From contig CM000207.1 of the NCBI GenBank assembly GCA_000002445.1, forward strand, positions 2,336,001 through 2,400,000: 64,000 nucleotides of DNA. The letters run 5' to 3'. Position 1 is the stretch's first letter, and each line of letters opens with the position of its first letter. The stretch is from Trypanosoma brucei (Eukaryota). The position numbers and the translations under genes are program-made. Positions 31,689 to 56,269 of the stretch are shown here, piece after piece. The notes under the pieces are model-generated. The model was not told where the DNA came from, did not search any database, and worked only from the letters and a program-made list of their open reading frames with translations.

Positions 31689-32579
31689 ATGAGCATCACT
31701 TTTAATAATTTATGGCTACTTTTGACAGTGTTATGCACTGCTAGAATTCGTGCTGATTTCATTGGGGAGGAGTGTCTCGACATAGTCTCTTATCCATCAG
31801 CTGATGTGGTACGCATTTTGTGCCATGTTGCAGGCCAGCTTCGAGGCCTATCACAGACAGTAAGTTCTGCTGTGGAAACTGCCGCTGCTGCTTCGAGTAA
31901 AGCATTTGAAGCAAAGGTACAAGCAGAGGAAGCTGTGGAACTTGCCGAGTCGAGAGGCCTAAACGTTACGAAAGCGAAGGAAGCTGCTGTGAGAGCAACA
32001 CACGCTGCTGAAGCTGCGGCTTTGGCTGCAAGTAACTTGGCTTTTGCCGCTGCAAATATTGCTGCGGTGCCGTGGTCACAACCAATCAGTGATTCCATGT
32101 TGCATAAACTCGCACTATGCGACCACGTCGACGAGTATGTGCGAGAGGCAGCAAAAAAGTGCACAAAGAAAGCGAAGAACGTGACGGCACAATCTCTCAA
32201 TGAGGTCCTCAAAGCGTTTGAGAAGCTGTTCAGTGAAGTAAATGCCTTGCAATCCTTACGGCATAATATTGCTGAGTTCCACAAAGACCTGAAATCGTTA
32301 GAGGATCACGTTGAAGACATTGTCCGTGCACAAAAAAATGCGGAAGATGCAGCTGCAGAGACAAATAAAATAGCAGCGCCTGATCATGAGGTAGGAGGTA
32401 ACAAAGAAGAAACACCAAGTCAACAGCCAGACACAAATCAAGATCAACAGGCAAATGAGAAACCTGAGGCAAATCAGACAGCCGGCACAAATACGGGACC
32501 ACTTGGAAATTCCGTTGCTTCACCTGAAGGGTCAGTGCTGCTACTGATGGCTGGATTGTTTCTCGGTTCTGTACTGTAA
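31689..32579 (+). CDS. BARP: BARP-like alanine-rich surface protein, copy 1 (296 aa)
   Basis: Signal peptide MSITFNNLWLLLTVLCTARIRA; conserved core SSKAFEAKVQAEEAVELAESRGLNVTKAKEAAVRAT; GPI signal NSVASPEGSVLLLMAGLFLGSVL. It carries a unique extension (APDHEVGGNKEETPSQQPDTNQDQQANEKPEANQTAGTNTGPLG) before the GPI signal. Confidence 0.85.
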   Translation: MSITFNNLWLLLTVLCTARIRADFIGEECLDIVSYPSADVVRILCHVAGQLRGLSQTVSSAVETAAAASSKAFEAKVQAEEAVELAESRGLNVTKAKEAAVRATHAAEAAALAASNLAFAAANIAAVPWSQPISDSMLHKLALCDHVDEYVREAAKKCTKKAKNVTAQSLNEVLKAFEKLFSEVNALQSLRHNIAEFHKDLKSLEDHVEDIVRAQKNAEDAAAETNKIAAPDHEVGGNKEETPSQQPDTNQDQQANEKPEANQTAGTNTGPLGNSVASPEGSVLLLMAGLFLGSVL

Positions 32580-33589
32580 GAGGTTGCAACTCCATGAATT
32601 GTGATCCCAACCATTCCACTTGTCTCCACACAGTTATGTGCACATACAGGTGAGGCAACAAACATCCTTTGATATTAACCTTATTTTCTATCAGTGGCTA
32701 TTAATATTGTTATTTTATTTTGTTTCATTTATACTTTCACTTTTATTCTTTTTAACTTTACTTTACTTTTCCTTTACTGTGTTATCTTTCGAATATCTGT
32801 TCCAACTTTTATCCTTCATTTTTATAACTGATTTTCTAGTGTGTTTATTGCCCTACTTTTAGTTGTATTTTTTCCTTTACCACCTTTGTTTTTTCATTAT
32901 TTTATTCATGTAAAGCACTGAGGTGATTGCGTGTGAGCATGGCCACCTATGCGTTACCATTGTAAAACCGTTTTGCTAAAATCTATCATTCCTACGCATC
33001 CATAATGTCCTATTGTATGCGTAAAGCTAACTGATTCTGAGGGTTTTTATTTTATCATGAAGCAAAACTGTTACACTGTGGGTTTACCTTCACATATCTC
33101 TCTCCCATTACTCATTACACTTATTTTATGTTGTATTCTCTCCCTTTTTATTTCATATCTCTATATTTTATGTTACTGTCAGTATGTTGTATCGTAATAG
33201 TGTAGGATACCCTAAATGCTCAATACATGTGCTCTTACTGATTCGATCAGATATTGATATTATCATGTCTAATGAAATGACTATTGGAAGTTTGGGTGTG
33301 TGCTATTGCATTGCCTCTCTGCTTTGTAATTATGATATTTGATTTCCACTGTCACTTAGAATTGTATTTAGTAGGGAGTGGGGACAGTTCCATGCTGTGA
33401 TGTGTGCAGTGTGCTTAAATGATGAGCTGATTGACTGTAATGGTGTCACTACTCATATTGATACTATTGTTGTTGCTATTCTTTGCATTTCCCACTGTTG
33501 ATTCCATTAATCTCTCCTAATTCTCATGACAAGAATCCACTACAAGACAGCAGACACAAGTTTCGATACCATCCGAATAAATAACAATT

Positions 33590-34372
33590 ATGAGCATCAC
33601 TTTTCATAACTTATGGCTACTTTTAACAGTGTTATGCACCGCAGGTATTCGTGCTGACGCAAGTAAGGAGGAGTGTCCGGATAAGGGATCTTATCCGGCA
33701 GCCGAGGACGTACTTGTATTGTGTCGTGTGGCGGAACAACTTCGAGGGTTACCGGATACAGTGAGTTCTGCTCTTGTTAATGCCGCTACTGCTTCGAGTA
33801 AAGCATTTGAAGCAAAGGTACAAGCAGAGGAAGCTGTGGAACTTGCCGAGTCGAAAGGCCTAAACGTTACGAAAGCGAAGGAAGCTGCTGTGAGAGCAAC
33901 ACTCGCTGCTGAAGCTGCGGCTACGGCTGCAAGTAATGTGGAAATTAACGCTGCAAATATTGCTGCGGTGCCGTGGCTTGAACGAAGACAAAATGTGGGT
34001 TGGCAGAAGCTTGCGAAGTGTATAGACTTAGATATGGACATGCGGGAAGCAGCAAGGGTGTGTAGAAGGGCAGCAGACAACGTGACAGCCCAATCCCTCA
34101 CTGCGGCGCTGAAGGATTTGGAGAAGGTTTATACTGATGTGAGTACTAGAGAAGCCTTACGGAAGGAAACCGTTGAGTTCCATAAAGAGCTCGCGTCTTT
34201 AGAGGAGCATGTCGAAGAGGCTGTCCGTGCACAAAAACGGGCTGAGGATGCAGCTGCATATGCGAATCAAACAGTCGGTACAAATACGGGACCAGTTGTG
34301 AATTCCGTTGCATCACCTGAAGGGTCAGTGCTGCTACTGATAGCTGGACTGTTTCTCGGTTCTGTACTGTAA
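33590..34372 (+). CDS. BARP: BARP-like alanine-rich surface protein, copy 2 (260 aa)
   Basis: Same signal peptide, core and GPI signal. N-terminal variable segment is type DASKEECPDKGSYPAAEDVLVLC. Confidence 0.85.
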   Translation: MSITFHNLWLLLTVLCTAGIRADASKEECPDKGSYPAAEDVLVLCRVAEQLRGLPDTVSSALVNAATASSKAFEAKVQAEEAVELAESKGLNVTKAKEAAVRATLAAEAAATAASNVEINAANIAAVPWLERRQNVGWQKLAKCIDLDMDMREAARVCRRAADNVTAQSLTAALKDLEKVYTDVSTREALRKETVEFHKELASLEEHVEEAVRAQKRAEDAAAYANQTVGTNTGPVVNSVASPEGSVLLLIAGLFLGSVL

Positions 34373-35384
34373 GAGGTTGCAACTCTATAAATTGTGATGC
34401 CAACCATTCCTCTTGTCTCCACACAGTTATGTGCACATACAAGTGAGGCAGCAAACATTCTTTGATATTAACCTTATTTTCTATCAGTGGCTATTAATAT
34501 TGTTATTTTATTTTGTTTCATTTATACTTTCACTTTTATTCTTTTTACTTTACTTTACTTTTCCTTTTATTATTTTATCTTTCGAACAGTTGTTGTAACT
34601 TTTATCCTTCATTTTTATAACTGATTTTCTAGTGTGTTTATTGCCCTACTTTTTAGCTATATTTTTTTCCTTTATTACCTTTGTTTTTTCATTATTTTAT
34701 TCATGTAATGCACTGAGGTGATTGCGTGTAAGCATGGCCACCTATGTGTTACCATCGTAAGAGCGTGTTACTAAAATCTATCATTCCTACGCATCCATAA
34801 TGTCCTATTGTATGCGTAAAGCTAACTGATTCTGAGGGTTTTTATTTTATCATGAAGCAAAACTGTTACACTGTGAGTTTACCTTCACATATCTCTCTCC
34901 CATTACTCATTACACTTATTTTATGTTGTATTCTCTCCCTTTTTATTTCATATCTCTATATTTTATGTTACTGTCAGTATGTTGTATCGTAATAGTGTAG
35001 GATACCCTAAATGCTCAATACATGTGCTCTTACTGATTCCATCAGATATTGATATTATCGTGTCTAATGAAATGACTATTGGAAGTTTGGGTGTGTGCTA
35101 TTGCATTCCCTCTCTGCTTTGTAATTATGTTATTTGATTTCCACTGTCACTTAGAATTGTATTTAGTAGGGAGTGGGGACAGTTCCATGCTGTGATGTGT
35201 GCAGTGTGCTTAAATGATGAGCTGATTGACTGTAATGGTGTCACTACTCATATTGATACTATTGTTATTGCTATTCTTTGTATTTCCCACTGTTGATTCC
35301 AATAATCTCTCCTAATTCTCATGACAAGAATCCACTACAAGACAGCAGACACAAGTTTCGATACCATCCAAATAAATAACAATT

Positions 35385-36167
35385 ATGAGCATCACTTTTC
35401 ATAATTTATGGCTACTTTTGACAGTGTTATGCACCGCAGGTGTTCGTGCTCATCATGGCTGGACCAATTGCTACCCTGCGGGAAACAGTCCACCAGTAGA
35501 AGAGATTCGTGCGTCATGCGAAGTGGCTCACCAACTTCGAGGCCTATCACAAACAGTAACATCTGCTGTGGAAACTTCCGCTGCTGCTTCGAGTAAAGCA
35601 TTTGAAGCAAAGGTACAAGCAGAGGAAGCTGTGGAACTTGCCGAGTCAAAAGGCCTAAACGTTACGAAAGCGAAGGAAGCTGCTGTGAGAGCAACACTCG
35701 CTGCTGAAGCTGCGGCTACGGCTGCAAGTAATGTGGAAATTAACGCTGCAAATATTGCTGCGGTGCCGTGGCTTGAACGAAGACAAAATACAGGTTGGGA
35801 GGTGCTTACGAAATGCATTAACTTAGACGATGATATAAAAAAAATGGCATCAAAGTGTAAAAGTGCAGCAGAAGTTGTAACAGCCGAATCGATCAGTGCG
35901 GCGTTAAACGATTTGGGGAAGACATTTATAAATGAGAAGACTCGAGAAGCCTTACGGAAGGAAAGCGTTGAGTTCCATAAAGAGCTCGCGTCTTTAGAGG
36001 AACATGTCGAAGAGGCTGTCCGTGCACAAAAACGGGCTGAGGATGCAGCTGCAGATGCGAATCAAACAGCCGGTACAAATACGGGACCAGTTGTGAATTC
36101 CGTTGCATCACCTGAAGGGTCAGTGCTGCTACTGATGGCTGGACTGTTTCTCGGTTCTGTACTGTAA
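35385..36167 (+). CDS. BARP: BARP-like alanine-rich surface protein, copy 3 (260 aa)
   Basis: N-terminal variable segment HHGWTNCYPAGNSPPVEEIRASC; conserved core and GPI signal. Confidence 0.85.
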   Translation: MSITFHNLWLLLTVLCTAGVRAHHGWTNCYPAGNSPPVEEIRASCEVAHQLRGLSQTVTSAVETSAAASSKAFEAKVQAEEAVELAESKGLNVTKAKEAAVRATLAAEAAATAASNVEINAANIAAVPWLERRQNTGWEVLTKCINLDDDIKKMASKCKSAAEVVTAESISAALNDLGKTFINEKTREALRKESVEFHKELASLEEHVEEAVRAQKRAEDAAADANQTAGTNTGPVVNSVASPEGSVLLLMAGLFLGSVL

Positions 36168-37183
36168 GAGGTTGCAACTCTATAAATTGTGATGCCAACC
36201 ATTCCACTTGTCTCCACACAGTTATATGCACATACAAGTGAGGCAGCAAACATCCTTTCCTATTAACCTTATTTTCTATCAGTGGCTATTAATATTGTTA
36301 TTTTATTTTGTTTCATTTATACTTTCATTTTTATTATTCTTTTTACTTTACTTTACTTTTCCTTTTATTATTTTATCTTTCGAACAGTTGTTGTAACTTT
36401 TATCCTTCATTTTTATAGCTGTGCTACTAAAGTGTGTTTATAGTCCTTCTTTTTAGTTGTATTTTTTCCTTTATTACCTTTGTTTTTTCATTATTTTATT
36501 CATGTAATGCACTGAGGTGATTGCGTGTGAGCATGACCACCTATGCGTTACCATTGTAAAACCGTGTTACTAAAACGTATCATTTCTACGCATCCATAAT
36601 GTCCTATTGTATGCGTAAAGCTAACTGATTCTGAGGGTTTTTATTTTATCATGAAGCAAAACTGTTACACTGTGAGTTTACCTTCACATATCTCTCTCCC
36701 ATTACTCATTACACTTATTTTATGTTGTATTCTCTCCCTTTTTATTTCATATCTCTATATTTTATGTTACTGTCAGTATGTTGTGTCGTAATAGTGTAGA
36801 ATACTCTAAACGCTCAATACATGTGCTCTTACTGATTCCATCAGATATTGATATTATCGTGTCTAATGAAATGACTATTGGAAGTTTGGGTGTGTGCTAT
36901 TGCATTGCCTCTCTGCTTTGTAATTATGATATTTGATTTCCACTGTCACTTAGAATTGTATTTAGTAGGGAGTGGGGACAGTTCCATGCTGTGATGTGTG
37001 CAGTGTGCTTAAATGATGAGCTGATTGACTGTAATGGTGTCACTACTCATATTGATACTATTAATGTTGCTATTCCCTGTATTTCCTACTGTTGATTCCA
37101 TTAATCTCTCCTAATTCTCATGACAAGAATCCACTACAAGACAGCAGACACAAGTTTCGATACCATCCGAATAAATAACAATT

Positions 37184-38056
37184 ATGAGCATCACTTTTCA
37201 TAACTTATGGCTACTTTTGACAGTGTTATGCACTGCAGGTATTCGTGCGCACGGTGACTGGAGAGATTGCTATGCTGGTAGGAAACCCCCACCGGCAGGA
37301 CACGTACGTGTGGTGTGCAGTTTGGCGGAACAACTTCGAGGTTTACCGGATACAATAAGTTCTGCTCTTGTTACTGCCGCTGCTGCTTCGAGTAAGGCAT
37401 TTGAAGCAAAGGTACAAGCAGAGGAAGCTGTGGAACTTGCCGAGTCGAGAGGCCTAAACGTTACGAAAGCGAAGGAAGCTGCTGTGAGAGCAACACTTGC
37501 TGCTGAAGCTGCGGCTACAGCTGCAAGTAATGTGGAAATTGACGCTGCAAATGTCACTTCCTCCCGTCTGGCTCGTCGCAATCCTAACACAGGCTTTGAG
37601 AAAGTTGCTATGTGCGAAAACTTGGACAAGGATTTGCGGGAGGCGGCAGCAAAGTGCACAAAGAAAGCGGAGAACGTGACAACCCAATCACTCAGTGAGA
37701 CACTTCATAGGTTGGAGAATCTGTACACTAATATGAGTGCTCTTGAATCCTTACGGGTCGAACATGTTGAAATTGAACGCTTTTTTGAGATGCTCGAAGA
37801 ACACGTGGAGGAGGCTGTCCGTGCACAAAGACAAGCTGAGGAAGCAGCTGCCGAGGCAATTAAAATAGTAGCTGCTGATGAGGAGGTGAGAGGATACAAA
37901 AAGGAAGAAATTAATCAAGTAGCAGGGACAAAAAAAGGTCATGAGGCAAATCAAACAACCGGCACAAATACGGGACCAGTTGTGAATTCCGTTGCATCAC
38001 CTGAAGGGTCAGTGCTGCTACTGATGGCTGGACTGTTTCTCGGTTCTGTACTGTAA
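37184..38056 (+). CDS. BARP: BARP-like alanine-rich surface protein, copy 4 (290 aa)
   Basis: N-terminal variable segment HGDWRDCYAGRKPPPAGHVRVVC. It also carries the C-terminal insertion EEAAAEAIKIVAADEEVRGYKKEEINQVAGTKKGHEANQTTGTNTGPVVN, shared with copy 5. Confidence 0.85.
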   Translation: MSITFHNLWLLLTVLCTAGIRAHGDWRDCYAGRKPPPAGHVRVVCSLAEQLRGLPDTISSALVTAAAASSKAFEAKVQAEEAVELAESRGLNVTKAKEAAVRATLAAEAAATAASNVEIDAANVTSSRLARRNPNTGFEKVAMCENLDKDLREAAAKCTKKAENVTTQSLSETLHRLENLYTNMSALESLRVEHVEIERFFEMLEEHVEEAVRAQRQAEEAAAEAIKIVAADEEVRGYKKEEINQVAGTKKGHEANQTTGTNTGPVVNSVASPEGSVLLLMAGLFLGSVL

Positions 38057-39074
38057 GAGGTTGCAACTCTATAAATTGTGATGCCAACCATTCCACTTGT
38101 CTCCACACAGTTATATGCACATACAAGTGAGGCAGCAAACATCCTTTCCTATTAACCTTATTTTCTATCAGTGGCTATTAATATTGTTATTTTATTTTGT
38201 TTCATTTATACTTTCATTTTTATTATTCTTTTTACCTTACTTTACTTTTCCTTTTCCTTTATAATGTTATATTCCGAACATGTTCCAACTTTTATCCTTC
38301 ATTTTTATAACTGATTTTCTAGTGTATTTATTTTCTTATTTTTAGCTATATTTTTTTCCTTTATTATCTTTGTTTTTTCATTATTTTATTCATGTAATGC
38401 ACTGAGGTGATTGCGTGTGAGCATGGCCACCTATGCGTTACAACTGTAAAATTGTTTTACTGAAACGTATCATTCCTACGCATCCATAATGTCCTATTGT
38501 ATGCGTAAAGCTAACTGATTCTGAGGGTTTTTTATTTTATCATGAAGCAAAACTGTTACACTGTGGGTTTACCTTCACATATCTCTCTCCCATTACTCAT
38601 TACACTTATTTTATGTTGTATTCTCTCCCTTTTTATTTCATATCTCTATATTTTATGTTACTGTCAGTATGTTGTATCGTAATAGTGTAGGATACCCTAA
38701 ATGCTCAATACATGTGCTCTTACTGATTCCATCAGATATTGATATTATCGTGTCTAATGAAATGACTATTGGAAGTTTGGGTGTGTGCTATTGCATTGCC
38801 TCTCTGCTTTGTAATTATGTTATTTGATTTCCACTGTCACTTAGAATTGTATTTAGTAGGGAGTGGGGACAGTTCCATGCTGTGATGTGTGCAGTGTGCT
38901 TAAATGACGAGCTGATTGACTGTAATGGTGTCACTACTCATATTGATACTATTAATGTTGCTATTCCCTGTATTTCCCACTGTTGATTCCATTAATCTCT
39001 CCTAATTCTCATGACAAGAATCCACTACAAGACAGCAGACACAAGCTTCGATACCATCCAAATTAATAACAATT

Positions 39075-39947
39075 ATGAGCATCACTTTTAATAATTTATG
39101 GCTACTTTTGACAGTGTTATGCACCGCAGGTATTCGTGCTCATCATGTCTGGAATGATTGCTTTGCCGATGGAAGCTATCCACCACTAGAAGGTATACCC
39201 GCATTGTGTGGTGTGGCGGAACAACTTCGAGGTTTACCGGATACAATAAGTTCTGCTCTTGTTAATGTCGCTACTGCTTCGAGTAAAGCATTTGAAGCAA
39301 AGGTACAAGCAGAGGAAGCTGTGGAACTTGCCGAGTCGAAAGGCCTAAACGTTACGAAAGCGAAGGAAGCTGCTGTGAGAGCAACACTCGCTGCTGAAGC
39401 TGCGGCTACGGCTGCAAGTAATGTGGAAATTAACGCTGCAAATATTGCTGCGGTGCCGTGGTCACAAAGGAGACAGGATGCGGGGTTGCAAAAAGTTGCA
39501 CTATGCGACAATGTGGACAAGGATGTACGAGAGGCGGCAGCAAAGTGCACAAAGAAAGCGGAGAACGTGACAGCTGAATCTCTCCGTGCGGCACTAGAAG
39601 CGTTGGAGAATCTTGTTACTGATGTTAAATTCCAAGAAAATTTACGGAAGGAAGATGTCGAATTTCACACGGAGCTGAAATCATTAGAGGATCACGTGGA
39701 GGAGGCTGTCCGTGCACAAAGACAAGCTGAGGAAGCAGCTGCCGAGGCAATTAAAATAGTAGCTGCTGATGAGGAGGTGAGAGGATACAAAAAGGAAGAA
39801 ATTAATCAAGTAGCAGGGACAAAAAAAGGTCATGAGGCAAATCAAACAACCGGCACAAATACGGGACCAGTTGTGAATTCCGTTGCATCACCTGAAGGGT
39901 CAGTGCTGCTACTGATGGCTGGACTGTTTCTCGGTTCTGTACTGTAA
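39075..39947 (+). CDS. BARP: BARP-like alanine-rich surface protein, copy 5 (290 aa)
   Basis: N-terminal variable segment HHVWNDCFADGSYPPLEGIPALC. Its C-terminal 60 aa are identical to copy 4. Confidence 0.85.
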   Translation: MSITFNNLWLLLTVLCTAGIRAHHVWNDCFADGSYPPLEGIPALCGVAEQLRGLPDTISSALVNVATASSKAFEAKVQAEEAVELAESKGLNVTKAKEAAVRATLAAEAAATAASNVEINAANIAAVPWSQRRQDAGLQKVALCDNVDKDVREAAAKCTKKAENVTAESLRAALEALENLVTDVKFQENLRKEDVEFHTELKSLEDHVEEAVRAQRQAEEAAAEAIKIVAADEEVRGYKKEEINQVAGTKKGHEANQTTGTNTGPVVNSVASPEGSVLLLMAGLFLGSVL

Positions 39948-48321: not shown

Positions 48322-49104
48322 ATGAGCATCACTTTTAATAATTTATGGCTACTTTTGACAGTGTTATGCACTTCAGGTATTCGTGCTCATCATGTCTGGA
48401 ATGATTGCTTTGCTGATGGAAACCATCCACCTGTAGATGAGATTCCCGTCTTGTGTCGTGTGGCGGAACAACTTCGAGGTTTACCGGATACAATAAGTTC
48501 TGCTGTGGAAACTGCCGCTGCTGCTTCGAGTAAAGCATTTGAAGCAAAGGTACAAGCAGAGGAAGCTGTGGAACTTGCCGAGTCGAAAGGCCTAAACGTT
48601 ACGAAAGCGAAGGAAGCTGCTGTGAGAGCAACACTCGCTGCTGAAGCTGCGGCTACGGCTGCAAGTAATGTGGAAATTAACGCTGCAAATATTGCTGCGG
48701 TGCCGTGGTCACAACGAAGACAGGATGTGGGGTTACAGGAACTTGCACTATGCGACAATGTGGACAAGGATGTACGAGAGGCGGCAGCAAAGTGTACAAA
48801 GAAAGCGGACAACGTGACAGCCCAATCGCTCAGTGCGGCACTAGAAGCGTTGGAGAATTTATACACTGATGTGAATACCCGGGAGACCTTGCGGCGGGAA
48901 GATGTTGAGTTTCACACGGAGCTGAAATCGTTAGAGGAACATGTGGAGGAGGCTGTCCGTGCACAAAAACAAGCTGAGGATGCAGCTGCAGATGCAATTA
49001 AAATAGCCGGTACAAATACGGGACCAGTTGTGAATTCCGTTGCATCACCTGAAGGGTCGGTGCTGCTACTGATGGCTGGATTGTTTCTCGGTTCTGTACT
49101 GTAA
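48322..49104 (+). CDS. BARP: BARP-like alanine-rich surface protein, copy 10 (260 aa)
   Basis: N-terminal variable segment HHVWNDCFADGNHPPVDEIPVLC (copy-5 type); conserved core and GPI signal. Confidence 0.85.
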   Translation: MSITFNNLWLLLTVLCTSGIRAHHVWNDCFADGNHPPVDEIPVLCRVAEQLRGLPDTISSAVETAAAASSKAFEAKVQAEEAVELAESKGLNVTKAKEAAVRATLAAEAAATAASNVEINAANIAAVPWSQRRQDVGLQELALCDNVDKDVREAAAKCTKKADNVTAQSLSAALEALENLYTDVNTRETLRREDVEFHTELKSLEEHVEEAVRAQKQAEDAAADAIKIAGTNTGPVVNSVASPEGSVLLLMAGLFLGSVL

Positions 49105-50117
49105 GAGGTTGCAACTCCATGAATTGTGATCCCAACCATTCCACTTGTCTCCACACAGTTATGTGCACATACAAGTGAGGCAGCAAACATCCTTTGATAT
49201 TAGTATTATTTTCTATCAGTGGCTATTAATATTGTTATTTTATTTTGTTTCATTTATACTTTCACTTTTATTATTCTTTTTACTTTACTTTACTTTTCCT
49301 TTCATTATTTTATCTTTCGAATATCTGTTGTAACTTTTATCCTTCATTTTTATAACTGATTTTCTAGTGTGTTTATTGCCCTACTTTTAGTTGTATTTTT
49401 TCCTTTATTACCTTTTTTATTTCATTATTTTATTCATGTAATGCACTGAGGTGATTGCGTGTAAGCATGGCCACCTATGCGTTACCATTGTAAAACCGTT
49501 TTGCTAAAATCTATCATTCCTACGCATCCATAATGTCCTATTGTATGCGTAAAGCTAACTGATTCTGAGGGTCTTTATTTTATCATGAAGCAAAACTGTT
49601 ACACTGTGGGTTTACCTTCACATATCTCTCTCCCATTACTCATTACACTTATTTTATGTTGTATTCTCTCCCTTTTTATTTCATATCTCTATATTTTATG
49701 TTACTGTCAGTAGGTTGTATCGTAATAGTGTAGGATACCCTAAATGCTCAATACATGTGCTCTTACTGATTCGATCAGATATTGATATTATCGTGTCTAA
49801 TGAAATGACTATTGGAAGTTTGGGTGTGTGCTATTGCATTGCCTCTCTGCTTTGTAATTATGATATTTGATTTCCACTGTCACTTAGAATTGTATTTAGT
49901 AGGGAGTGGGGACAGTTCCATGCTGTGATGTGTGCAGTGTGCTTAACTGATGAGCTGATTGACTGTAATGGTGTCACTACTCATATTGATACTATTGTTG
50001 TTGCTATTCTTTGTATTTCCCACTGTTGATTCCATTAATCTCTCCTAATTCTCATGACAAGAATCCACTACAAGACAGCAGACACAAGTTTCGATACCAT
50101 CCAAATTAATAACAATT

Positions 50118-50900
50118 ATGAGCATCACTTTTCATAACTTATGGCTACTTTTGACAGTGTTATGCACTGCAGGTATTCGTGCTGACTATATCTGGAACAA
50201 CTGCTCTGTTGAAAACAGTCATCCTCCGCTGGAAGAAATACGTGTCTTGTGTCGTGTGGCGGAACAGCTTCGAGGGTTACCGGAGACAGTAAGTTCTGCT
50301 GTGGAAACTGCCGCTGCTGCTTCGAGTAAAGCATTTGAAGCAAAGGTACAAGCAGAGGAAGCTGTGGAACTTGCCGAGTCGAGAGGTCTAAACGTTACGA
50401 AAGCAAAGGAAGCTGCTGTGAGAGCAACACTCGCTGCTGAAGCTGCGGCCACGGCTGCAAGTAATGTGGAAATTAACGCTGCAAATATTGCTGCGGTGCC
50501 GTGGTTACAACCAATCTCTGATGCAGGTTTGGAAAACCTTTCTAAATGCGAGCACATAGACAAGTATGTGCAGGAGGCGGCAGCAGAGTGCTCAAAGAAA
50601 GCAGAACATGTGACGGCTCAATCGCTTAGTGCGGCACTGGAAGGGTTGGAGAATCTATTCACTGATGTGAGTACTAGGGAAGCCTTACGGAAGGAAACCA
50701 TTGAGTTTCACACTGAGCTGAAATCGTTAGAGGAACATGTCGAAGAGGCTGTCCGTGCACAAAAACGGGCTGAGGATGCAGCTGCATATGCGAATCAAAC
50801 AGTCGGTACAAATACGGGACCAGTTGGAAATTCTGTTGCATCACCTGAAGGGTCAGTGCTGCTACTGATGGCTGGACTGTTTCTCGGTTCTGTACTGTAA
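50118..50900 (+). CDS. BARP: BARP-like alanine-rich surface protein, copy 11 (260 aa)
   Basis: N-terminal variable segment DYIWNNCSVENSHPPLEEIRVLC; conserved core and GPI signal. Confidence 0.85.
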   Translation: MSITFHNLWLLLTVLCTAGIRADYIWNNCSVENSHPPLEEIRVLCRVAEQLRGLPETVSSAVETAAAASSKAFEAKVQAEEAVELAESRGLNVTKAKEAAVRATLAAEAAATAASNVEINAANIAAVPWLQPISDAGLENLSKCEHIDKYVQEAAAECSKKAEHVTAQSLSAALEGLENLFTDVSTREALRKETIEFHTELKSLEEHVEEAVRAQKRAEDAAAYANQTVGTNTGPVGNSVASPEGSVLLLMAGLFLGSVL

Positions 50901-51913
50901 GAGGTTGCAACTCCATGAATTGTGATCCCAACCATTCCACTTGTCTCCACACAGTTATGTGCACATACAAGTGAGGCAACAAATATCCTTTGATATTAGT
51001 ATTATTTTCTATCAGTGGCTATTAATATTGTTATTTTATTTTGTTTCATTTATACTTTCATTTTTATTATTCTTTTTACTTTACTTTTCCTTTCATTATT
51101 TTATCTTTCGAATATCTGTTGTAACTTTTATCCTTCATTTTTATAACTGATTTTCTAGTGTGTTTATTGCCCTACTTTTTAGCTATATTTTTTCCTTTAT
51201 TACCTTTTTTATTTCATTATTTTATTCATGTATTGCACTGAGGTGATTGCGTGTAAGCATGGCCACCTATGCGTTACAATAGTGACACTTTTTTTTTAAT
51301 CAAAATCTATCATTCCTACGCATCCATAATGTCCTATTGTATGCGTAAAGCTAACTGATTCTGAGGGGTTTTATTTTATCATGAAGCAAAAATGTTACAC
51401 TGTGGGTTTACCTTCACATATCTCTCTCCCATTACTCATTACACTTATTTTATGTTGTATTCTCTCCCTTTTTATTTCATATCTCTATATTTTATGTTAC
51501 TGTCAGTAGGTTGTATCGTAATAGTGTAGGATACCCTAAATACTCAATACATGTGCTCTTACTGATTCCATCAGATATTGATATTATCGTGTCTAATGAA
51601 ATGACTATTGGAAGTTTGGGTGTGTGCTATTGCATTGCCTCTCTGCTTTGTAATTATGATATTTGATTTCCACTGTCACTTAGAATTGTATTTAGTAGGG
51701 AGTGGGGACAGTTCCATGCTGTGATGTGTGCAGTGTGCTTAACTGATGAGCTGATTGACTGTAATGGTGTCACTACTCATATTGATACTATTGTTGTTGC
51801 TATTCTTTGTATTTCCCACTGTTGATTCCAATAATCTCTCCTAATTCTCATGACAAGAATCCACTACAAGACAGCAGACACAAGTTTCGATACCATCCAA
51901 ATTAATAACAATT

Positions 51914-52678
51914 ATGAGCATCACTTTTCATAACTTATGGCTACTTTTGACAGTGTTATGCACTGCAGGTATTCGTGCTGACGATATCTGGAACGACTGC
52001 CTTGCCAGCAGTAATGGTCCACCACTGAAACACATAGAAGTGTTATGTAATTTGGCGGAACAACTTCGAGGTTTACCGGATACAGTAAGTTCTGCTGTGA
52101 TTTCTGTAACGGAAGCATCTATAAAGGCCTCGAAAGCAAAGGTACAAGCAGAGGAAGCTGTGGAACTTGCCGAGTCGAAAGGCCTAAACGTTACGAAAGC
52201 GAAGGAAGCTGCTGTGAGAGCAACACTCGCTGCTGAAGCTGCGGCTACGGCTGCAAGTAATGTGGAAATTAACGCTGCAAATATTGCTGAACTTCCTTGG
52301 TCTCAAAGGAGGAGAGACGCTGGTTTGCAGAATATTGAACACTGCAAAAATTTGGATAAGGATGTACGAGAGGCAGCAGTAAAGTGTACAAAGAAAGCGG
52401 AGAACGTGACAGCCGATTCTCTCCGTGCGGCACTGGAAGGGTTGGAAACATTGTTCAGCGACGTTTACATACTAGTAACGTTGCGGAAGGAAAAAGTTGA
52501 GATGCAGGAAGAAATGCAATCGTTAGAACAAAACGCAGCGACAGTCCTTCGTGTACTTCAAAAGGCTGAGGATGCAGCAGCTGATGCAAATCGAGAAGCC
52601 CTTGGAAATTCCGTTGCATCACCTGAAGGCTCGGTGCTGCTACTGATGGCTGGATTGTTTCTCGGTTCTGTACTGTAA
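51914..52678 (+). CDS. BARP: BARP-like alanine-rich surface protein, copy 12 (254 aa)
   Basis: N-terminal variable segment DDIWNDCLASSNGPPLKHIEVLC. The segment after the N-terminal variable block is divergent (VISVTEASIKASKAKVQAEE). The C-terminus is shortened (ANREALGNSVASPEGS...). Confidence 0.85.
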   Translation: MSITFHNLWLLLTVLCTAGIRADDIWNDCLASSNGPPLKHIEVLCNLAEQLRGLPDTVSSAVISVTEASIKASKAKVQAEEAVELAESKGLNVTKAKEAAVRATLAAEAAATAASNVEINAANIAELPWSQRRRDAGLQNIEHCKNLDKDVREAAVKCTKKAENVTADSLRAALEGLETLFSDVYILVTLRKEKVEMQEEMQSLEQNAATVLRVLQKAEDAAADANREALGNSVASPEGSVLLLMAGLFLGSVL

Positions 52679-53688
52679 GAGGTTGCAACTCCATGAATTG
52701 TGATCCCAACCATTCCACTTGTCTCCACACAGTTATGTGCACATACAAGTGAGGCAACAAACATCCTTTCATATTAACCTTATTTTCTATCAGTGGCTAT
52801 TAATATTGTTATTTTATTTTGTTTCATTTATACTTTCACTTTTATTATTCTTTTTACTTTACTTTTCCTTTCATTATTTTATCTTTCGAATATCTGTTCC
52901 AACTTTTATCCTTCATTTTTATAACTGATTTTCTAGTGTGTTTATTGCCCTACTTTTAGTTGTATTTTTTCCTTTATTACCTTTTTTATTTCATTATTTT
53001 ATTCATGTAATGCACTGAGGTGATTGCGTGTAAGCATGGCCATCTATGCGTTACAATAGTGACACTTTTTTTTATCAAAATCTATCATTCCTACGCATCC
53101 ATAATGTCCTATTGTATGCGTAAAGCTAACTGATTCTGAGGGTTTTTATTTTATCATGAAGCAAAAATGTTACACTGTGGGTTTACCTTTACATATCTCT
53201 CTCCCATTACTCATTACACTTATTTTATGTTGTATTCTCTCCCTTTTTATTTCATATCTCTATATTTTATGTTACTGTCAGTATGTTGTATCGTAATAGT
53301 GTAGGATACCCTAAATGCTCAATACATGTGCTCTTACTGATTCGATCAGATATTGATATTATCGTGTCTAATGAAATGACTATTGGAAGTTTGGGTGTGT
53401 GCTATTGCATTGCCTCTCTGCTTTGTAATTATGATATTTGATTTCCACTGTCACTTAGAATTGTATTTAGTAGGGAGTGGGGACAGTTCCATGCTGTGAT
53501 GTGTGCAGTGTGCTTAAATGATGAGCTGATTGACTGTAATGGTGTCACTACTCATATTGATACTATTGTTGTTGCTATTCTTTGCATTTCCCACTGTTGA
53601 TTCCATTAATCTCTCCTAATTCTCATGACAAGAATCCACTACAAGACAGCAGACACAAGTTTCGATACCATCCGAATAAATAACAATT

Positions 53689-54474
53689 ATGAGCATCACT
53701 TTTCATAATTTATGGCTACTTTTGACAGTGTTATGCACTGCAGGTATTCGTGGTGATCGAGTCTGGTACGATTGTCCAGAAAAAGGAGTGGACACATCGC
53801 GGGACGACATACAAGCTTTGTGCCGTGCAGCGGAGCAGTTCAGAGGCCTATCACAAACAGTAACATCTGCTGTGGAAACTTCCGCGGCTGCTTCAAGTAA
53901 AGCATTTGAAGCAAAGGTACAAGCAGAGGAAGCTGTGGAACTTGCCGAGTCGAGAGGCCTAAACGTTACGAAAGCGAAGGAAGCTGCTGTGAGAGCAACA
54001 CTCGCTGCTGAAGCTGCGGCCACGGCTGCAAGTAATGTGGAAATTGACGCTGCAAATATTGCTGCGGTGCCGTGGTCACAACCAAGCAGTGATGCAGGTT
54101 TACAAAAGCTGGCACTTTGTGAAAACATCGACAAGAGTTTACGACAGTTGGCATCAAAGTGCTCGAAGAGAGCGGAAAACGTGACGGCCCAATCGCTCAG
54201 TGAGGCGTTGGAGGGACTAAGAAAACTACACTACAATGATGTATACGTTAAGGAAATATTAGAGAGAGAAGATGTTGAGTTCCACAAAGAGTTTATGTGG
54301 TTACAGCACCACCTCCGGGAGGCTGTCCGTGCACAAAAACAGGCTGAGGATGCAGCTGCAGAGGCGAATGAAATAGCCGGCACAAATACGGGACCAGTTG
54401 GAAATTCCGTTGCATCACCTGAAGGGTCAGTGCTGCTACTGATGGCTGGACTGTTTCTCGGTTCTGTACTGTAA
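53689..54474 (+). CDS. BARP: BARP-like alanine-rich surface protein, copy 13 (261 aa)
   Basis: N-terminal variable segment DRVWYDCPEKGVDTSRDDIQALC; conserved core and GPI signal. Confidence 0.85.
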   Translation: MSITFHNLWLLLTVLCTAGIRGDRVWYDCPEKGVDTSRDDIQALCRAAEQFRGLSQTVTSAVETSAAASSKAFEAKVQAEEAVELAESRGLNVTKAKEAAVRATLAAEAAATAASNVEIDAANIAAVPWSQPSSDAGLQKLALCENIDKSLRQLASKCSKRAENVTAQSLSEALEGLRKLHYNDVYVKEILEREDVEFHKEFMWLQHHLREAVRAQKQAEDAAAEANEIAGTNTGPVGNSVASPEGSVLLLMAGLFLGSVL

Positions 54475-55486
54475 GAGGTTGCAACTCCATGAATTGTGAT
54501 CCCAACCATTCCACTTGTCTCCACACAGTTATGTGCACATACAAGTGGGGCAGCAAACATCCTTTCATATTAACCTTATTTTCTATCAGTGGCTATTAAT
54601 ATTGTTATTTTATTTTGTTTCATTTATACTTTCACTTTTATTATTCTTTTTACTTTACTTTACTTTTCCTTTCATTATTTTATCTTTCGAATATCTGTTG
54701 TAGCTTTTATCCTTCATTTTTATAACTGATTTTCTAGTGTGTTTATTGCCCTACTTTTAGTTGTATTTTTTCCTTTATTACCTTATTTTTCATTATTTTA
54801 TTCATGTATTGCACTGAGGTGATTGCGTGTAAGCATGGCCATCTATGCGTTACAATAGTGACACTTTTTTAATCAAAATCTATCATTCCTACGCATCCAT
54901 AATGTCCTATTGTATGCGTAAAGCTAACTGATTCTGAGGGTTTTTATTTTATCATGAAGCAAAACTGTTACACTGTGGGTTTACCTTCACATATCTCTCT
55001 CCCATTACTCATTACACTTATTTTATGTTGAATTCTCTCCCTTTTTATTTCATATCTCTATATTTTATGTTACTGTCAGTAGGTTGTATCGTAATAGTGT
55101 AGGATACCCTAAATACTCAATACATGTGCTCTTACTGATTCCATCAGATATTGATATTATCGTGTCTAATGAAATGACTATTGGAAGTTTGGGTGTGTGC
55201 TATTGCATTGCCTCTCTGCTTTGTAATTATGATATTTGATTTCCACTGTCACTTAGAATTGTATTTAGTAGGGAGTGGGGACAGTTCCATGCTGTGATGT
55301 GTGCAGTGTGCTTAAATGATGAGCTGATTGACTGTAATGGTGTCACTACTCATATTGATACTATTGTTGTTGCTATTCTTTGTATTTCCCACTGTTGATT
55401 CCGTTAATCTCTCCTAATTCTCATGACAAGAATCCACTACAAGACAGCAGACACAAGTTTCGATACCATCCAAATTAATAACAATT

Positions 55487-56269
55487 ATGAGCATCACTTT
55501 TCATAACTTATGGCTACTTTTGACAGTGTTATGCACTGCAGGTATTCGTGCTGACGATATCTTGAATAATTGCTCTGCTGGTAGGAAACCCCCACCGGCA
55601 GTATACGTAACTGCCTTGTGTCGTGTGGCGGAACAACTTCGAGGGTTAGGAGGGACTATTAGTTCCTCTCTTCTTACTGTAACTTCCGCGTCAAGTAAAG
55701 CATTCAAAGCAAAGGTACAAGCAGAGAAGGCTGTGAAACTTGCCGAGTCGAGAGGCCTAAACGTTACGAAAGCGAAGGAAGCTGCTGTGAGAGCAACACT
55801 CGCTGCTGAAGCTGCGGCCACGGCTGTGAGCTATTGTATTACCCATTCTACGAAAGTTGGGTCAATTGCAGAGATGCTATGGGAGGTAGATGAGGAGCTG
55901 CATGTTTTTTCGTTATGTGGTAACAAAGACAGGGATGTACAAGATACGGCATTAAAGTGTACTGATACAGCGGAAGGTGTAACAGCCCAATCGCTCAGTG
56001 AGGCGCTAGAAGGGTTAGCTAAATTAGTTTTTGACGACAACGTTGCTAGAAAGTTGCGGCAGGAAGATACTGTGTTCCAGAGAGAATTTATGTGGTTACA
56101 GCAGCACATGGAGGAGGCTGTCCGTGCACAAAAACAAGCTGAGGATGCAGCTGCAGATGCAAATGAAACAGCCGGCCCAAATACGGGACCAGTTGTGAAT
56201 TCTGTTGCATCACCTGAAGGGTCAGTGCTGCTACTGATGGCTGGACTGTTTCTCGGTTCTGTACTGTAA
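55487..56269 (+). CDS. BARP: BARP-like alanine-rich surface protein, copy 14 (260 aa)
   Basis: N-terminal variable segment DDILNNCSAGRKPPPAVYVTALC. The core has substitutions (KAFKAKVQAEKAVKLAE). The central block (AVSYCITHSTKVGSIAEMLWEVDEELHVFSLCGNKDRDVQD) is related to that of copies 6 and 8. Confidence 0.85.
   Translation: MSITFHNLWLLLTVLCTAGIRADDILNNCSAGRKPPPAVYVTALCRVAEQLRGLGGTISSSLLTVTSASSKAFKAKVQAEKAVKLAESRGLNVTKAKEAAVRATLAAEAAATAVSYCITHSTKVGSIAEMLWEVDEELHVFSLCGNKDRDVQDTALKCTDTAEGVTAQSLSEALEGLAKLVFDDNVARKLRQEDTVFQREFMWLQQHMEEAVRAQKQAEDAAADANETAGPNTGPVVNSVASPEGSVLLLMAGLFLGSVL

What the first reader, a model, noticed from the sequence alone, without database searches (positions are those of the whole stretch)
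31750..56200. Mosaic, cassette-like shuffling of two hypervariable segments between array copies (segmental gene conversion)
Variation is confined to two windows. Segment 1 is the roughly 25 aa after the signal peptide, always framed by two Cys (for example DASKEECPDKGSYPAAEDVLVLC, HGDWRDCYAGRKPPPAGHVRVVC, HHVWNDCFADGSYPPLEGIPALC). Segment 2 is about 60–90 aa between ...NAANIAAVPW and the GPI signal. The variants recombine independently. Copies 4 and 7 share segment 1 and the middle block (NVTSSRLARRNPNTGFEK...EHVEIERFFEM) but differ at the C-terminus. Copies 4 and 5 share an identical C-terminal insertion of about 60 aa (EEAAAEAIKIVAADEEVRGYKKEEINQVAGTKKGHEANQTTG) but have different segment 1. 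Copies 6 and 8 are near-identical; their middle block reappears, diverged, in copy 14, which instead has a copy-4-like segment 1 (GRKPPPA). Copies 5 and 10 share segment 1 but not segment 2. This patchwork is the signature of repeated short-tract gene conversion, reminiscent of mosaic VSG formation but in an insect-stage coat protein.
Basis: seen in the sequence. Interest (0 to 1): 0.75.

Follow-up and report, generated by a model that had tools for sequence, protein, structure and literature searches.

The report
Known gene-conversion mosaics in BARP array
The 14 tandem copies of the Trypanosoma brucei tsetse-stage coat protein BARP really are patchworks of shared segments made by recombination between copies, but this was already published in 2007 and 2010, so it is a correct rediscovery.

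Summary
Window 31548-57027 is the 14-gene BARP array of T. brucei TREU927 chromosome 9; 10 copies were looked up and all match annotated BARP proteins exactly. The mosaic pattern is real. My PHI test gives z = -9 to -13. Segment trees conflict at 97-100% bootstrap. A GARD-like scan places breakpoints at aa columns ~49, 73-85 and 170. Three exact-identity tracts of 268-444 nt lie inside regions that otherwise differ by 30-50%, and each is bounded on both sides, as expected of conversion patches.

Several details need correcting. Segment 2 is ~110-170 aa, not 60-90. Copies 5 and 10 do share segment 2 and differ only in the tail. Only a few exchanges are evident: most copies carry a unique segment 1 and a unique segment 2.

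The "hypervariable" label misleads. Synonymous divergence is 0.65-1.1 in the variable segments against 0.07 in the core, the spacers are 94-98% identical, and dN/dS is below 1. The variable segments are therefore old, stable lineages, probably forming the membrane-distal head, set among homogenised linkers where exchanges tend to resolve.

Jackson (2007) and Jackson et al. (2010) already reported conversion events, PHI/GARD breakpoints and subspecies-specific mosaics for this array. The VSG comparison is only an analogy. Novelty: already known.

The parts
31548..57027 (+). Full extent of BARP tandem-repeat homology (14 units of ~1.8 kb)
   Evidence: Homology to internal spacers begins 141 nt upstream of the copy 1 ATG (96% identity) and ends 758 nt after the copy 14 stop codon (91.6%). 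Unit spacing is 1775-1940 nt.
31689..32579 (+). BARP copy 1 (296 aa; EAN77358), with the longest tail insert
   Evidence: ORF list. Exact match to a TREU927 BARP protein. The same type is present in gambiense and equiperdum.
33590..34372 (+). BARP copy 2 (260 aa). Reference anatomy in window coordinates: signal peptide 33590-33649; variable segment 1 33650-33799; invariant core 33800-33925; variable segment 2a 33926-34198; segment 2b 34199-34264; tail plus GPI signal 34265-34372.
   Evidence: Pfam GARP domain, E = 2.6e-72. Diversity profile. AF2 model with helices 38-88, 94-125 and 184-231. Mosaic: identical to copy 6 over aa 1-88, like copy 3 from aa 114.
35385..36167 (+). BARP copy 3 (260 aa)
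   Evidence: Groups with copy 2 in segment 2 (bootstrap 0.97) but not in segment 1 (58% nt).
37184..38056 (+). BARP copy 4 (290 aa). Like copy 7 up to aa ~206, then identical to copy 5.
39075..39947 (+). BARP copy 5 (290 aa). Like copy 10 up to aa ~205, then carries copy 4's tail.
   Evidence: The gambiense gene of this type (P0004) and O60946 (P0005) lack the insert.
40962..41729 (+). BARP copy 6 (255 aa), a chimera of the copy 2 5' part and the copy 8 3' part
   Evidence: Identical to copy 2 over 273 nt and to copy 8 over 444 nt. The switch lies within 41228-41301.
42743..43579 (+). BARP copy 7 (278 aa), paralogue of copy 4 with a 36-nt deletion in the tail insert
   Evidence: The deletion is flanked by AATCAA direct repeats.
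44595..45362 (+). BARP copy 8 (255 aa)
   Evidence: The same type is present in gambiense and equiperdum.
46382..47362 (+). BARP copy 9 (326 aa; inferred to be Tb927.9.15590). Its 3' half and C-terminal domain are divergent; its first ~125 aa are homogenised with the rest of the array.
   Evidence: Segment 1 is 87.5-90% nt identical to copy 2, but segment 2a only 48%. It dominates the triplet signals. The orthologue in gambiense is 95-96% identical. PMC10089363 names 15590 as the only BARP with a C-terminal domain.
48322..49104 (+). BARP copy 10 (260 aa)
   Evidence: It retains the 5' edge (ATTAAAATAGC) of the tail insert.
50118..50900 (+). BARP copy 11 (260 aa)
   Evidence: Unique segment 1. 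It shares a 91-nt identical stretch (aa columns 210-277) with copy 2.
51914..52678 (+). BARP copy 12 (254 aa), unique in all segments
   Evidence: It is the only member of its 90% cluster.
53689..54474 (+). BARP copy 13 (261 aa)
   Evidence: This type is present three times in the equiperdum array.
55487..56269 (+). BARP copy 14 (260 aa). Old mosaic: GRKPPPA patch like copies 4/7 plus a middle block like copies 6/8.
   Evidence: The same combination occurs in gambiense and equiperdum at 98-99% nt.
33580..33852 (+). 273-nt tract identical to 40952-41224 (copy 2 = copy 6)
   Evidence: String identity verified, with mismatches immediately outside both ends.
41228..41671 (+). 444-nt tract identical to 44861-45304 (copy 6 = copy 8)
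   Evidence: Downstream spacer mismatch density returns to 6-21 per 100 nt.
37802..38069 (+). 268-nt tract identical to 39693-39960 (copy 4 = copy 5). It spans the stop codon.
41228..41301 (+). Interval containing the copy 2 / copy 8 switch within copy 6. It lies inside the invariant core.
   Evidence: The last copy-2-type site is at 41227 and the first copy-8-type site at 41302.
32580..33589 (+). First of 13 internal ~1.0 kb spacers (the rest lie between successive CDS). They are homogenised at 94-98% identity and are themselves finely mosaic.
   Evidence: Identity matrix. PHI z = -11.2. Divergence rises with distance along the array, 3.4% to 4.8%, Mantel p = 0.049.

Best explanation
This is the 14-gene tandem array encoding BARP, the GPI-anchored alanine-rich coat protein of T. 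brucei epimastigotes in tsetse salivary glands.

The array holds about ten old, strongly diverged versions of two coding segments. By inference these two segments together build the membrane-distal head of a three-helix bundle. They are embedded in DNA kept nearly identical between copies by ongoing homologous exchange: the ~1 kb spacers, the signal peptide, a 126-nt core encoding the membrane-proximal ends of helices I and II, and the GPI signal.

Recombination between misaligned copies is mostly non-reciprocal gene conversion, with tracts of a few hundred nt, and probably includes some unequal crossing-over. It tends to start or resolve in the homogenised stretches, namely the core and the conserved motif near aa 195-210. 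As a result a variable segment or tail is occasionally transferred whole, producing chimeric copies.

Shown here: recombination; tract boundaries; the age and selection contrast between segments; and differences between subspecies.

Inferred: conversion rather than crossover as the main mode; placement of the variable segments on the exposed head; and the idea that sequence divergence or selection keeps conversion from erasing the head variants.
For: Identity:
- Pfam GARP domain, E = 2.6e-72.
- The 10 copies looked up match TREU927 BARP proteins exactly.

Recombination:
- PHI z = -9 to -13, including on third codon positions.
- Conflicting clades: {2,6,8} at 1.0 in segment 1, against {2,3} at 0.97 and {6,8,14} at 1.0 in segment 2a.
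- 157 of 848 triplets reach the minimum permutation p.
- In a parsimony breakpoint scan, 1, 2 and 3 breakpoints save 48, 72 and 94 steps, against null maxima of 15, 27 and 32. The best breakpoints are at aa columns 73, then 49/85, then 170.

Conversion-like patches:
- Exact tracts of 273, 444 and 268 nt, each with ordinary divergence on both flanks.

Breakpoint positions:
- They pile up on the flanks of the invariant core and at columns 191-210.

Homogenised versus old DNA:
- dS is 0.066 in the core, 0.65 in segment 1 and 1.1 in segment 2a.
- The spacers are 94-98% identical and themselves mosaic.

Stability of types:
- Nine types keep the same linkage between segments 1 and 2a in gambiense and equiperdum, with pN/pS of 0.24-0.50.

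Ongoing events:
- The copy-5 type lacks the insert in gambiense and in O60946.
- The equiperdum copy-4 type has a patch like copies 10/5 at aa 151-180.
- Copy number is 14, 13 and 8 in the three assemblies.

Fold:
- The AF2 model matches GARP 2Y44 (TM 0.81), the factor H receptor 6XZ6 and MISP360 5VTL.
- The published MISP360 topology puts the N-terminus and helices III-V in the distal cap.

Published for this same array:
- Ten conversion events (PMC1855330).
- PHI p<0.001, 12 LRT breakpoints and at least 3 GARD breakpoints, with 8 shared and 2 brucei-specific isoforms (PMC2854126).
Against: - Donor and recipient cannot be assigned, so non-reciprocity was not shown here.
- Later events may have trimmed what were originally crossover products.
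- Copy-number differences and runs of one type in other strains point to unequal crossing-over as well.
- The recent chimeras (copy 6; the copy 5 tail) are seen only in the TREU927 assembly.
- The gambiense array has three 100-N gaps, and the equiperdum assembly has frameshifts.
- The head/base mapping rests on helix order in a model of pLDDT 70 plus published homologue structures. I could not measure coordinates.
- dS near 1 is close to saturation, and Nei-Gojobori averages can miss site-specific positive selection.
Confidence: 0.85

Rival explanations
1. The mosaics arise mainly by unequal crossing-over between misaligned array copies on sister chromatids or homologues. The crossover would fall in the invariant core or the spacers, creating chimeric genes and changing copy number, rather than by short-tract non-reciprocal conversion.
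For: - Copy number differs between assemblies: 14, 13 and 8.
- The equiperdum array keeps the TREU927 order (1, 3, 4, 8, 13, 14), with intervening types missing and the copy-13 type triplicated.
- Breakpoints fall in long identical stretches.
- Spacer divergence rises with distance along the array.
Against: - All three youngest exchanges are bounded on both sides. Identity does not continue through the adjoining spacer, as a simple crossover would predict.
- Jackson 2007 scored only 7 of 76 events across all arrays as reciprocal.
Confidence: 0.3
2. The chimeric copies are assembly artefacts of a repetitive array, with parts of different copies joined through the identical core.
For: - The core and spacers are nearly identical.
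- Copy 6 and the copy 5 tail are seen only in TREU927.
- The gambiense and equiperdum arrays show gaps and frameshifts.
Against: - The same combinations of segments 1 and 2a recur in two independent assemblies for types 1, 3, 5, 8, 9, 10, 13 and 14, and in the equiperdum assembly alone for type 4.
- Only ~130 nt separate the two variable segments, which is well within one Sanger read.
- Jackson 2007 retrieved single reads spanning most putative breakpoints for arrays on chromosomes 9-11.
Confidence: 0.04
3. The pattern needs no recombination. Copies diverged under diversifying selection in two exposed windows, and the shared motifs are convergent or ancestral.
For: - Variation maps to the probable exposed head.
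- Most copies have unique variable segments.
Against: - Exact 268-444 nt identities occur inside regions that differ by 30-50% on average.
- The PHI signal is present at third codon positions.
- Segment trees conflict at 97-100% bootstrap.
- dN/dS is below 1 in all segments.
Confidence: 0.02
4. BARP is a programmed, VSG-like variation system in which new mosaics are assembled during infection to change the expressed coat.
For: - Segmental exchange among surface-protein genes.
- The fold is related to a VSG monomer according to published comparisons.
- Jackson 2007 drew the contingency-gene analogy.
Against: - All 14 copies are intact ORFs in one polycistronic array.
- Thirteen isoforms are co-upregulated in salivary glands (PMC8483307).
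- Segment types are stable between subspecies and under purifying selection.
- There is no pseudogene archive or telomeric expression site in the window.
Confidence: 0.03

Closest known systems
BARP array 'Tb93' as analysed by Jackson 2007 (BMC Evol Biol 7:54) and Jackson et al. 2010 (PLoS NTD 4:e658)
   Same: It is the same locus and the same phenomenon.
- Coding distance (0.335) far exceeds UTR distance (0.073 and 0.038).
- Ten gene-conversion events were reported: three in the CDS and one spanning the stop codon.
- PHI p<0.001, 12 LRT breakpoints and at least 3 GARD breakpoints.
- 14 copies against 13, with 8 shared and 2 brucei-specific isoforms.
- Conversion was proposed to disperse motifs among copies, as in contingency genes.
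   Different: Nothing essential.
Mosaic VSG formation by segmental gene conversion in T. brucei bloodstream forms
   Same: Homology-dependent transfer of sequence blocks between paralogous GPI-anchored surface-protein genes built on a three-helix-bundle fold, with variation concentrated in the membrane-distal part.
   Different: BARP has no silent or pseudogene archive, no telomeric expression site and no monoallelic expression. Exchanges are rare on the timescale of subspecies divergence. Types are under purifying selection. Expression is in the tsetse, which lacks antibody-based immunity (general knowledge).
Other T. brucei tandem-array mosaics (ISG65 array on chromosome 2; PGK-B chimera of PGK-A and PGK-C)
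   Same: Chimeric copies generated by conversion between neighbouring tandem duplicates. Subspecies-specific recombinants are reported for 27 of 35 variable arrays.
   Different: BARP combines unusually deep coding divergence with homogenised non-coding spacers. Most arrays show the opposite pattern or little variation.
T. congolense GARP (PDB 2Y44) and T. brucei MISP360 (PDB 5VTL) and factor H receptor (PDB 6XZ6); Pfam PF16731 / Fam50
   Same: Same protein family and fold: an elongated three-helix bundle with a small distal helical cap and a GPI anchor.
   Different: These are structural relatives. They are not a precedent for the recombination pattern. MISP isoforms are described as invariant apart from residues near the apical pocket.

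Membership tests
BARP / GARP family (Pfam PF16731; Fam50) | Significant match to the GARP domain profile | tested here: met
   E = 2.6e-72 for copy 2 and 1.4e-61 for copy 9, far above the gathering score.
BARP / GARP family (Pfam PF16731; Fam50) | Identity with annotated T. brucei BARP genes | tested here: met
   All 10 copies looked up are exact matches to TREU927 BARP proteins EAN77358-77371.
BARP / GARP family (Pfam PF16731; Fam50) | Elongated three-helix bundle with a distal cap | tested here: met
   AF2 model (pLDDT 70). Foldseek matches GARP 2Y44 (E = 2.5e-8, TM 0.81), 6XZ6 and 5VTL.
BARP / GARP family (Pfam PF16731; Fam50) | N-terminal signal peptide and C-terminal GPI-addition signal | not tested
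   No predictor was run. All copies share a hydrophobic N-terminus (LWLLLTVLC). All except copy 9 share a hydrophobic C-terminus (SVLLLMAGLFLGSVL).
BARP / GARP family (Pfam PF16731; Fam50) | Epimastigote / salivary-gland-specific expression | not testable with these tools
   Literature only: PMC8483307 and PMC10089363.
Gene conversion between tandem paralogues | Different segments of the alignment support incompatible trees | tested here: met
   Bootstrap conflicts, PHI, triplet scan and breakpoint scan.
Gene conversion between tandem paralogues | Transferred tract bounded on both sides by recipient-type sequence | tested here: met
   Three exact tracts of 268-444 nt with normal divergence on both flanks.
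Gene conversion between tandem paralogues | Non-reciprocal transfer (donor unchanged) | tested here: inconclusive
   No reciprocal products are evident among the 14 copies, but donor and recipient cannot be polarised without an outgroup state. For copy 5, gambiense and O60946 suggest copy 5 was the recipient.
Concerted evolution of a tandem array | In homogenised regions, paralogues within a genome are as similar as orthologues between taxa | tested here: met
   In the core, paralogue dS is 0.066 against orthologue pS of 0.069. In the head, paralogue dS is 0.65-1.1 against orthologue pS of 0.06-0.10.
VSG-type antigenic variation / contingency system | Archive of silent or pseudogene donors feeding one expressed copy | tested here: not met
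   All 14 copies are intact ORFs in one head-to-tail array. Published RNA-seq shows 13 isoforms co-upregulated.
VSG-type antigenic variation / contingency system | Diversifying (positive) selection on the exposed segments | tested here: not met
   dN/dS is 0.3-0.5 among paralogues, and pN/pS is 0.24-0.50 between subspecies orthologues. Site-level tests were not run.
VSG-type antigenic variation / contingency system | New mosaics formed during the course of an infection | not testable with these tools
   This requires longitudinal sequencing of parasite populations.

The most novel reading that the evidence does not exclude
The ~10 head-domain variants could be an anciently maintained, functionally non-redundant repertoire, for example for different tsetse salivary-gland or saliva ligands, preserved by balancing selection. 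The nucleotide-invariant 126-nt core would then be kept as a dedicated recombination linker that allows the two halves of the head (the N-terminal loop and helix I tip, versus the helix II tip and cap) to be recombined combinatorially. This goes beyond the published view, which treats conversion as a by-product of array homogenisation.
Probability: 0.1. Interest if true: 0.5.

Novelty: already known. Interest (0 to 1): 0.15.

Why it matters
BARP is the major coat protein of the tsetse salivary-gland stage. Its function, and the reason a parasite stage living in an insect without antibodies keeps about ten deeply diverged head variants, are both unknown.

The recombination pattern itself is published and typical of T. 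brucei tandem arrays, so the finding adds no new biology. The useful refinement is that the variable segments are old and conserved rather than fast-evolving. That points to functional specialisation of isoforms rather than immune-evasion-style diversification.

Tried and rejected
- **Triplet scan with copy 9 included.** It was dominated by copy 9, whose 3' half is an outlier, so I re-summarised without it.
- **Supplementary tables of Jackson 2007.** I searched them for the individual Tb93 events; nothing is held.
- **Urwyler et al. 2007,** the original BARP description, is not in the library.
- **The phased Lister 427 preprint** matched 'BARP' only through the word 'barplots'.
- **No other strains could be added.** No Lister 427, EATRO1125 or T. 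evansi BARP proteins are in the protein collection. The family has only 15 clusters at 90% identity.
- **Is the downstream 346-aa gene a distant BARP relative?** Profile comparison was not significant (E = 0.058). The single-sequence AF2 model was too poor (pLDDT 51) to justify a fold search.
- **Positive selection as the cause of the variation** was rejected at the level of segment-wide dN/dS.
- **Assembly artefact** was rejected for the old mosaics because they recur in independent assemblies.

Full report
**What is there**

The + strand between 31689 and 56269 carries 14 intact ORFs of 254-326 aa, spaced 1775-1940 nt apart. Copy 2 and copy 9 match Pfam GARP (PF16731) at E = 2.6e-72 and 1.4e-61. 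A protein search returns only proteins named BARP from T. brucei subspecies. The 10 copies I looked up are exact matches to T. b. brucei TREU927 proteins EAN77358-EAN77371 on a 3.06-Mb contig. So the window is the BARP array of TREU927 chromosome 9. Published gene lists suggest Tb927.9.15510-15640.

Repeat homology runs from 141 nt upstream of the first ATG to 758 nt past the last stop codon, that is 31548-57027. An ArfGAP gene lies upstream. An unrelated 346-aa putative surface protein lies downstream.

**Checking the observation**

The diversity profile shows two variable zones.

| Region (aa columns) | Mean pairwise nt difference |
|---|---|
| 21-70 | 0.18-0.49 |
| ~113-285 | 0.1-0.53 |
| 91-110 (core) | 0.005-0.01 |

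The signal peptide and GPI signal are also nearly invariant. A 60-nt stretch of the core is identical in 11 of 14 copies.

- Copies 4 and 7 share segment 1 and the middle block.
- Copies 4 and 5 share an identical tail but differ in segment 1 (57% nt).
- Copies 6 and 8 are near-identical.
- Copy 14 has a diverged middle block like copies 6/8, plus a GRKPPPA patch like copies 4/7.

Corrections:
- Segment 2 is ~110-170 aa, not 60-90.
- The copy 14 resemblance to copy 4 in segment 1 is only 75% nt.
- Copies 5 and 10 do share segment 2a (88% nt; they are nearest neighbours) and differ only in the tail.
- At 85% nt identity there are 10 segment-1 types and 10-12 segment-2a types among the 14 copies, so only a few copies actually share cassettes.

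**Is it recombination?**

All four tests were my own implementations, and all say yes.

- PHI gives z = -9.0 (14 copies), -13.0 (without copy 9) and -6.0 (third positions only). All have permutation p at the floor.
- Segment-wise NJ bootstraps give incompatible clades. Segment 1 supports {2,6,8} at 1.00 and {4,7,14} at 0.77. Segment 2a supports {6,8,14} at 1.00 and {2,3} at 0.97.
- In a 3SEQ-like scan without copy 9, 316 of 848 triplets reach p<0.01, against 8.5 expected. Inferred breakpoints pile up on the flanks of the invariant core and at columns 191-210.
- In a GARD-like parsimony scan, 1, 2 and 3 breakpoints save 48, 72 and 94 steps, against maxima of 15, 27 and 32 in column-permuted nulls. 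The best positions are aa column 73, then 49 and 85, then 170.

**Anatomy of the recent events**

There are three exact-identity tracts inside otherwise 30-50% divergent regions.

| Copies | Length | Coordinates | Position in the gene |
|---|---|---|---|
| 2 = 6 | 273 nt | 33580-33852 = 40952-41224 | from -10 of the ATG to aa 88 |
| 6 = 8 | 444 nt | 41228-41671 = 44861-45304 | aa 89 to near the C-terminus |
| 4 = 5 | 268 nt | 37802-38069 = 39693-39960 | aa ~207 to 13 nt past the stop |

Copy 6 is thus the copy 2 5' part joined to the copy 8 3' part. The switch lies inside 41228-41301, within the invariant core.

In each case mismatch density returns to the ordinary spacer level on both sides. 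This is what a conversion patch predicts, and it is not what a single unequal crossover predicts.

The ~1 kb spacers are 94-98% identical. They are themselves finely mosaic (PHI z = -11.2). They are slightly more alike between neighbours: divergence is 3.4% for adjacent spacers and 4.8% for distant ones (Mantel p = 0.049).

Tail-length variants also involve small deletions:
- The 36-nt deletion in copy 7 lies between AATCAA direct repeats.
- Copy 10 keeps the 5' edge of the insert.

**Age and selection**

Among paralogues, synonymous divergence differs about ten-fold between regions.

| Region | dS among paralogues |
|---|---|
| Segment 1 | 0.65 |
| Segment 2a | 1.1 |
| Segment 2b | 0.67 |
| Core | 0.066 |
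| Signal peptide | 0.13 |

dN/dS is 0.3-0.5 in the variable segments and never exceeds 1 in any region. Between TREU927 and its counterparts in T. b. gambiense and T. b. equiperdum, pS is 0.06-0.14 in every region and pN/pS is 0.24-0.50.

So the variable segments are not fast-evolving. They are old lineages under purifying selection. The rest of the unit is homogenised: in the core, paralogues within the genome are as similar as orthologues between subspecies. The apparent confinement of variation to two windows is the footprint of concerted evolution that stops at the edges of the diverged segments.

**Other strains**

- The gambiense DAL972 array (L003 and L004 merged; 13 copies; three 100-N gaps) has types in the order 1, 3, 5, 3, 10, 13, gap, 3, 9, 5, 8, 3, gap, 10, 14.
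- A T. b. equiperdum assembly (L002) has 8 copies of types 1, 3, 4, 8, 13, 13, 13, 14, with a retroelement inserted after the first.
- The linkage between segments 1 and 2a is conserved at 93-99% nt for types 1, 3, 4, 5, 8, 9, 10, 13 and 14. The old mosaics, such as copy 14, therefore predate the subspecies split.
- Strain-specific differences do exist:
  - The copy-5 type has a short tail in gambiense (P0004) and yet another tail in O60946 (P0005).
  - The equiperdum copy-4 type carries a patch like copies 10/5 at aa 151-180.
  - A T. equiperdum OVI fragment (P0013) joins a hybrid segment 1 (copies 1 and 2) to the copy 2 middle block.
  - Types 6, 7, 11 and 12 were found only in TREU927; type 2's middle block recurs in the P0013 fragment.
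- Copy-number differences suggest that unequal crossing-over also acts.

**Structure**

An AF2 model of copy 2 (pLDDT 70) has helices at 38-88, 94-125 and 184-231, with short helices between 129 and 180. It matches GARP 2Y44 (TM 0.81), the factor H receptor 6XZ6 and MISP360 5VTL.

In MISP360 the N-terminal end of helix I, the end of helix II, helices III-V and the start of helix VI form the membrane-distal cap, which is pinned by a disulphide between helix I and helix IV (PMC10089363). GARP is described as a bundle capped by a small distal head (PMC5268388).

By helix order, segments 1 and 2a together form the distal head, and the invariant core forms the membrane-proximal ends of helices I and II. 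This is an inference, because I could not measure coordinates. If the two segments contact each other, co-adaptation would explain why they rarely reassort.

**Comparison with what is known**

This exact array has been analysed before.

- Jackson 2007 (PMC1855330), where the array is called Tb93:
  - Coding distance is 0.335 against 0.073 and 0.038 for the UTRs.
  - Ten gene-conversion events were found, three in the CDS and one spanning the stop codon.
  - Single reads spanning most putative breakpoints were used as vouchers.
  - Conversion was suggested to disperse motifs among copies, by analogy with contingency genes including VSG.
- Jackson et al. [quoted passage not shown]
  - BARP has 14 copies against 13, with 8 shared and 2 brucei-specific isoforms.
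  - PHI p<0.001, 12 LRT breakpoints and at least 3 GARD breakpoints.

My results agree with them in number and kind.

**Verdict**

The gene-conversion reading is right in substance. The terms 'hypervariable' and 'VSG-like' overstate it. The finding is already known.

**Caveats**

- My PHI, triplet and breakpoint tests are home-made implementations.
- dS near 1 is close to saturation.
- The comparator assemblies are imperfect.
- The TREU927 sequence is a haploid consensus of a diploid genome.

Noticed in passing
window 46382-48321 (copy 9 and its downstream spacer): Copy 9 is a structural outlier. Its first ~125 aa are homogenised with the array (segment 1 is 88-90% nt identical to copies 2/6). 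From there on it is ~48% identical to other copies. It lacks the Cys at aligned position 144, has a ~100-aa N/D/K-rich C-terminal extension with a different hydrophobic end, and its 3' spacer is only ~86% identical to the others. The same gene is conserved at 95-96% in gambiense, where the annotated start is truncated.
   Followed up: partly
window spacers, ~200-550 nt after each stop codon (e.g. 34570-34920): The promoter-distal part of each spacer (the presumed 3' UTR) contains a variable zone with 10-13% pairwise difference. The ~500 nt upstream of each ATG differ by only ~1%. This variable zone does not co-segregate with the coding type; for example, copies 6 and 8 differ there.
   Followed up: partly
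window 57447-58487 (+): Directly after the array lies a 346-aa ORF with a hydrophobic N-terminus, several NxS/T sites, long predicted helices (33-90, 95-166, 197-291) and a hydrophobic C-terminus, so it looks like another helical surface protein. It has no Pfam family above threshold and no significant profile match to BARP (E = 0.058). The single-sequence AF2 model is poor (pLDDT 51). A same-length (346-aa) gene is called at the same position after the gambiense array.
   Followed up: partly
window 37900-38030, 43460-43520, 49020-49050 (tails of copies 4/5, 7 and 10): Tail-length differences look like deletions between short direct repeats. Copy 7 lacks 36 nt that lie between two AATCAA motifs. 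Copy 10 retains the first 11 nt (ATTAAAATAGC) of the insert present in copies 4, 5 and 7, which suggests the short tail was derived from a long one.
   Followed up: partly
L002 2959-7203 (T. b. equiperdum array): Three ORFs sit between the first BARP copy (type 1, frameshifted) and the next copy. One has an endonuclease/exonuclease/phosphatase domain and one has a faint zinc-finger hit. This looks like a retrotransposon insertion inside the array.
   Followed up: no
L003/L004 (gambiense record FN554972.1, 2064339-2100066): The gambiense BARP array contains three 100-N gaps, four near-identical copies of type 3 and duplicated types 5 and 10. Its copy order may therefore partly reflect scaffolding rather than biology.
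   Followed up: no
window minus strand opposite every BARP CDS (e.g. 33691-34101, 37270-37659, 46516-47151): Long antisense ORFs (100-210 aa, rich in Ala/Ser/Thr) run across the conserved core of every copy. They are most simply a by-product of the alanine-rich GCN codon composition, not genes.
   Followed up: no
window 27596-28837 (+): The ArfGAP-domain gene upstream of the array carries a long Asn/Asp/His-rich low-complexity stretch in its C-terminal half. The ~2.7 kb between it and the array is AT-rich (34-35% GC).
   Followed up: no
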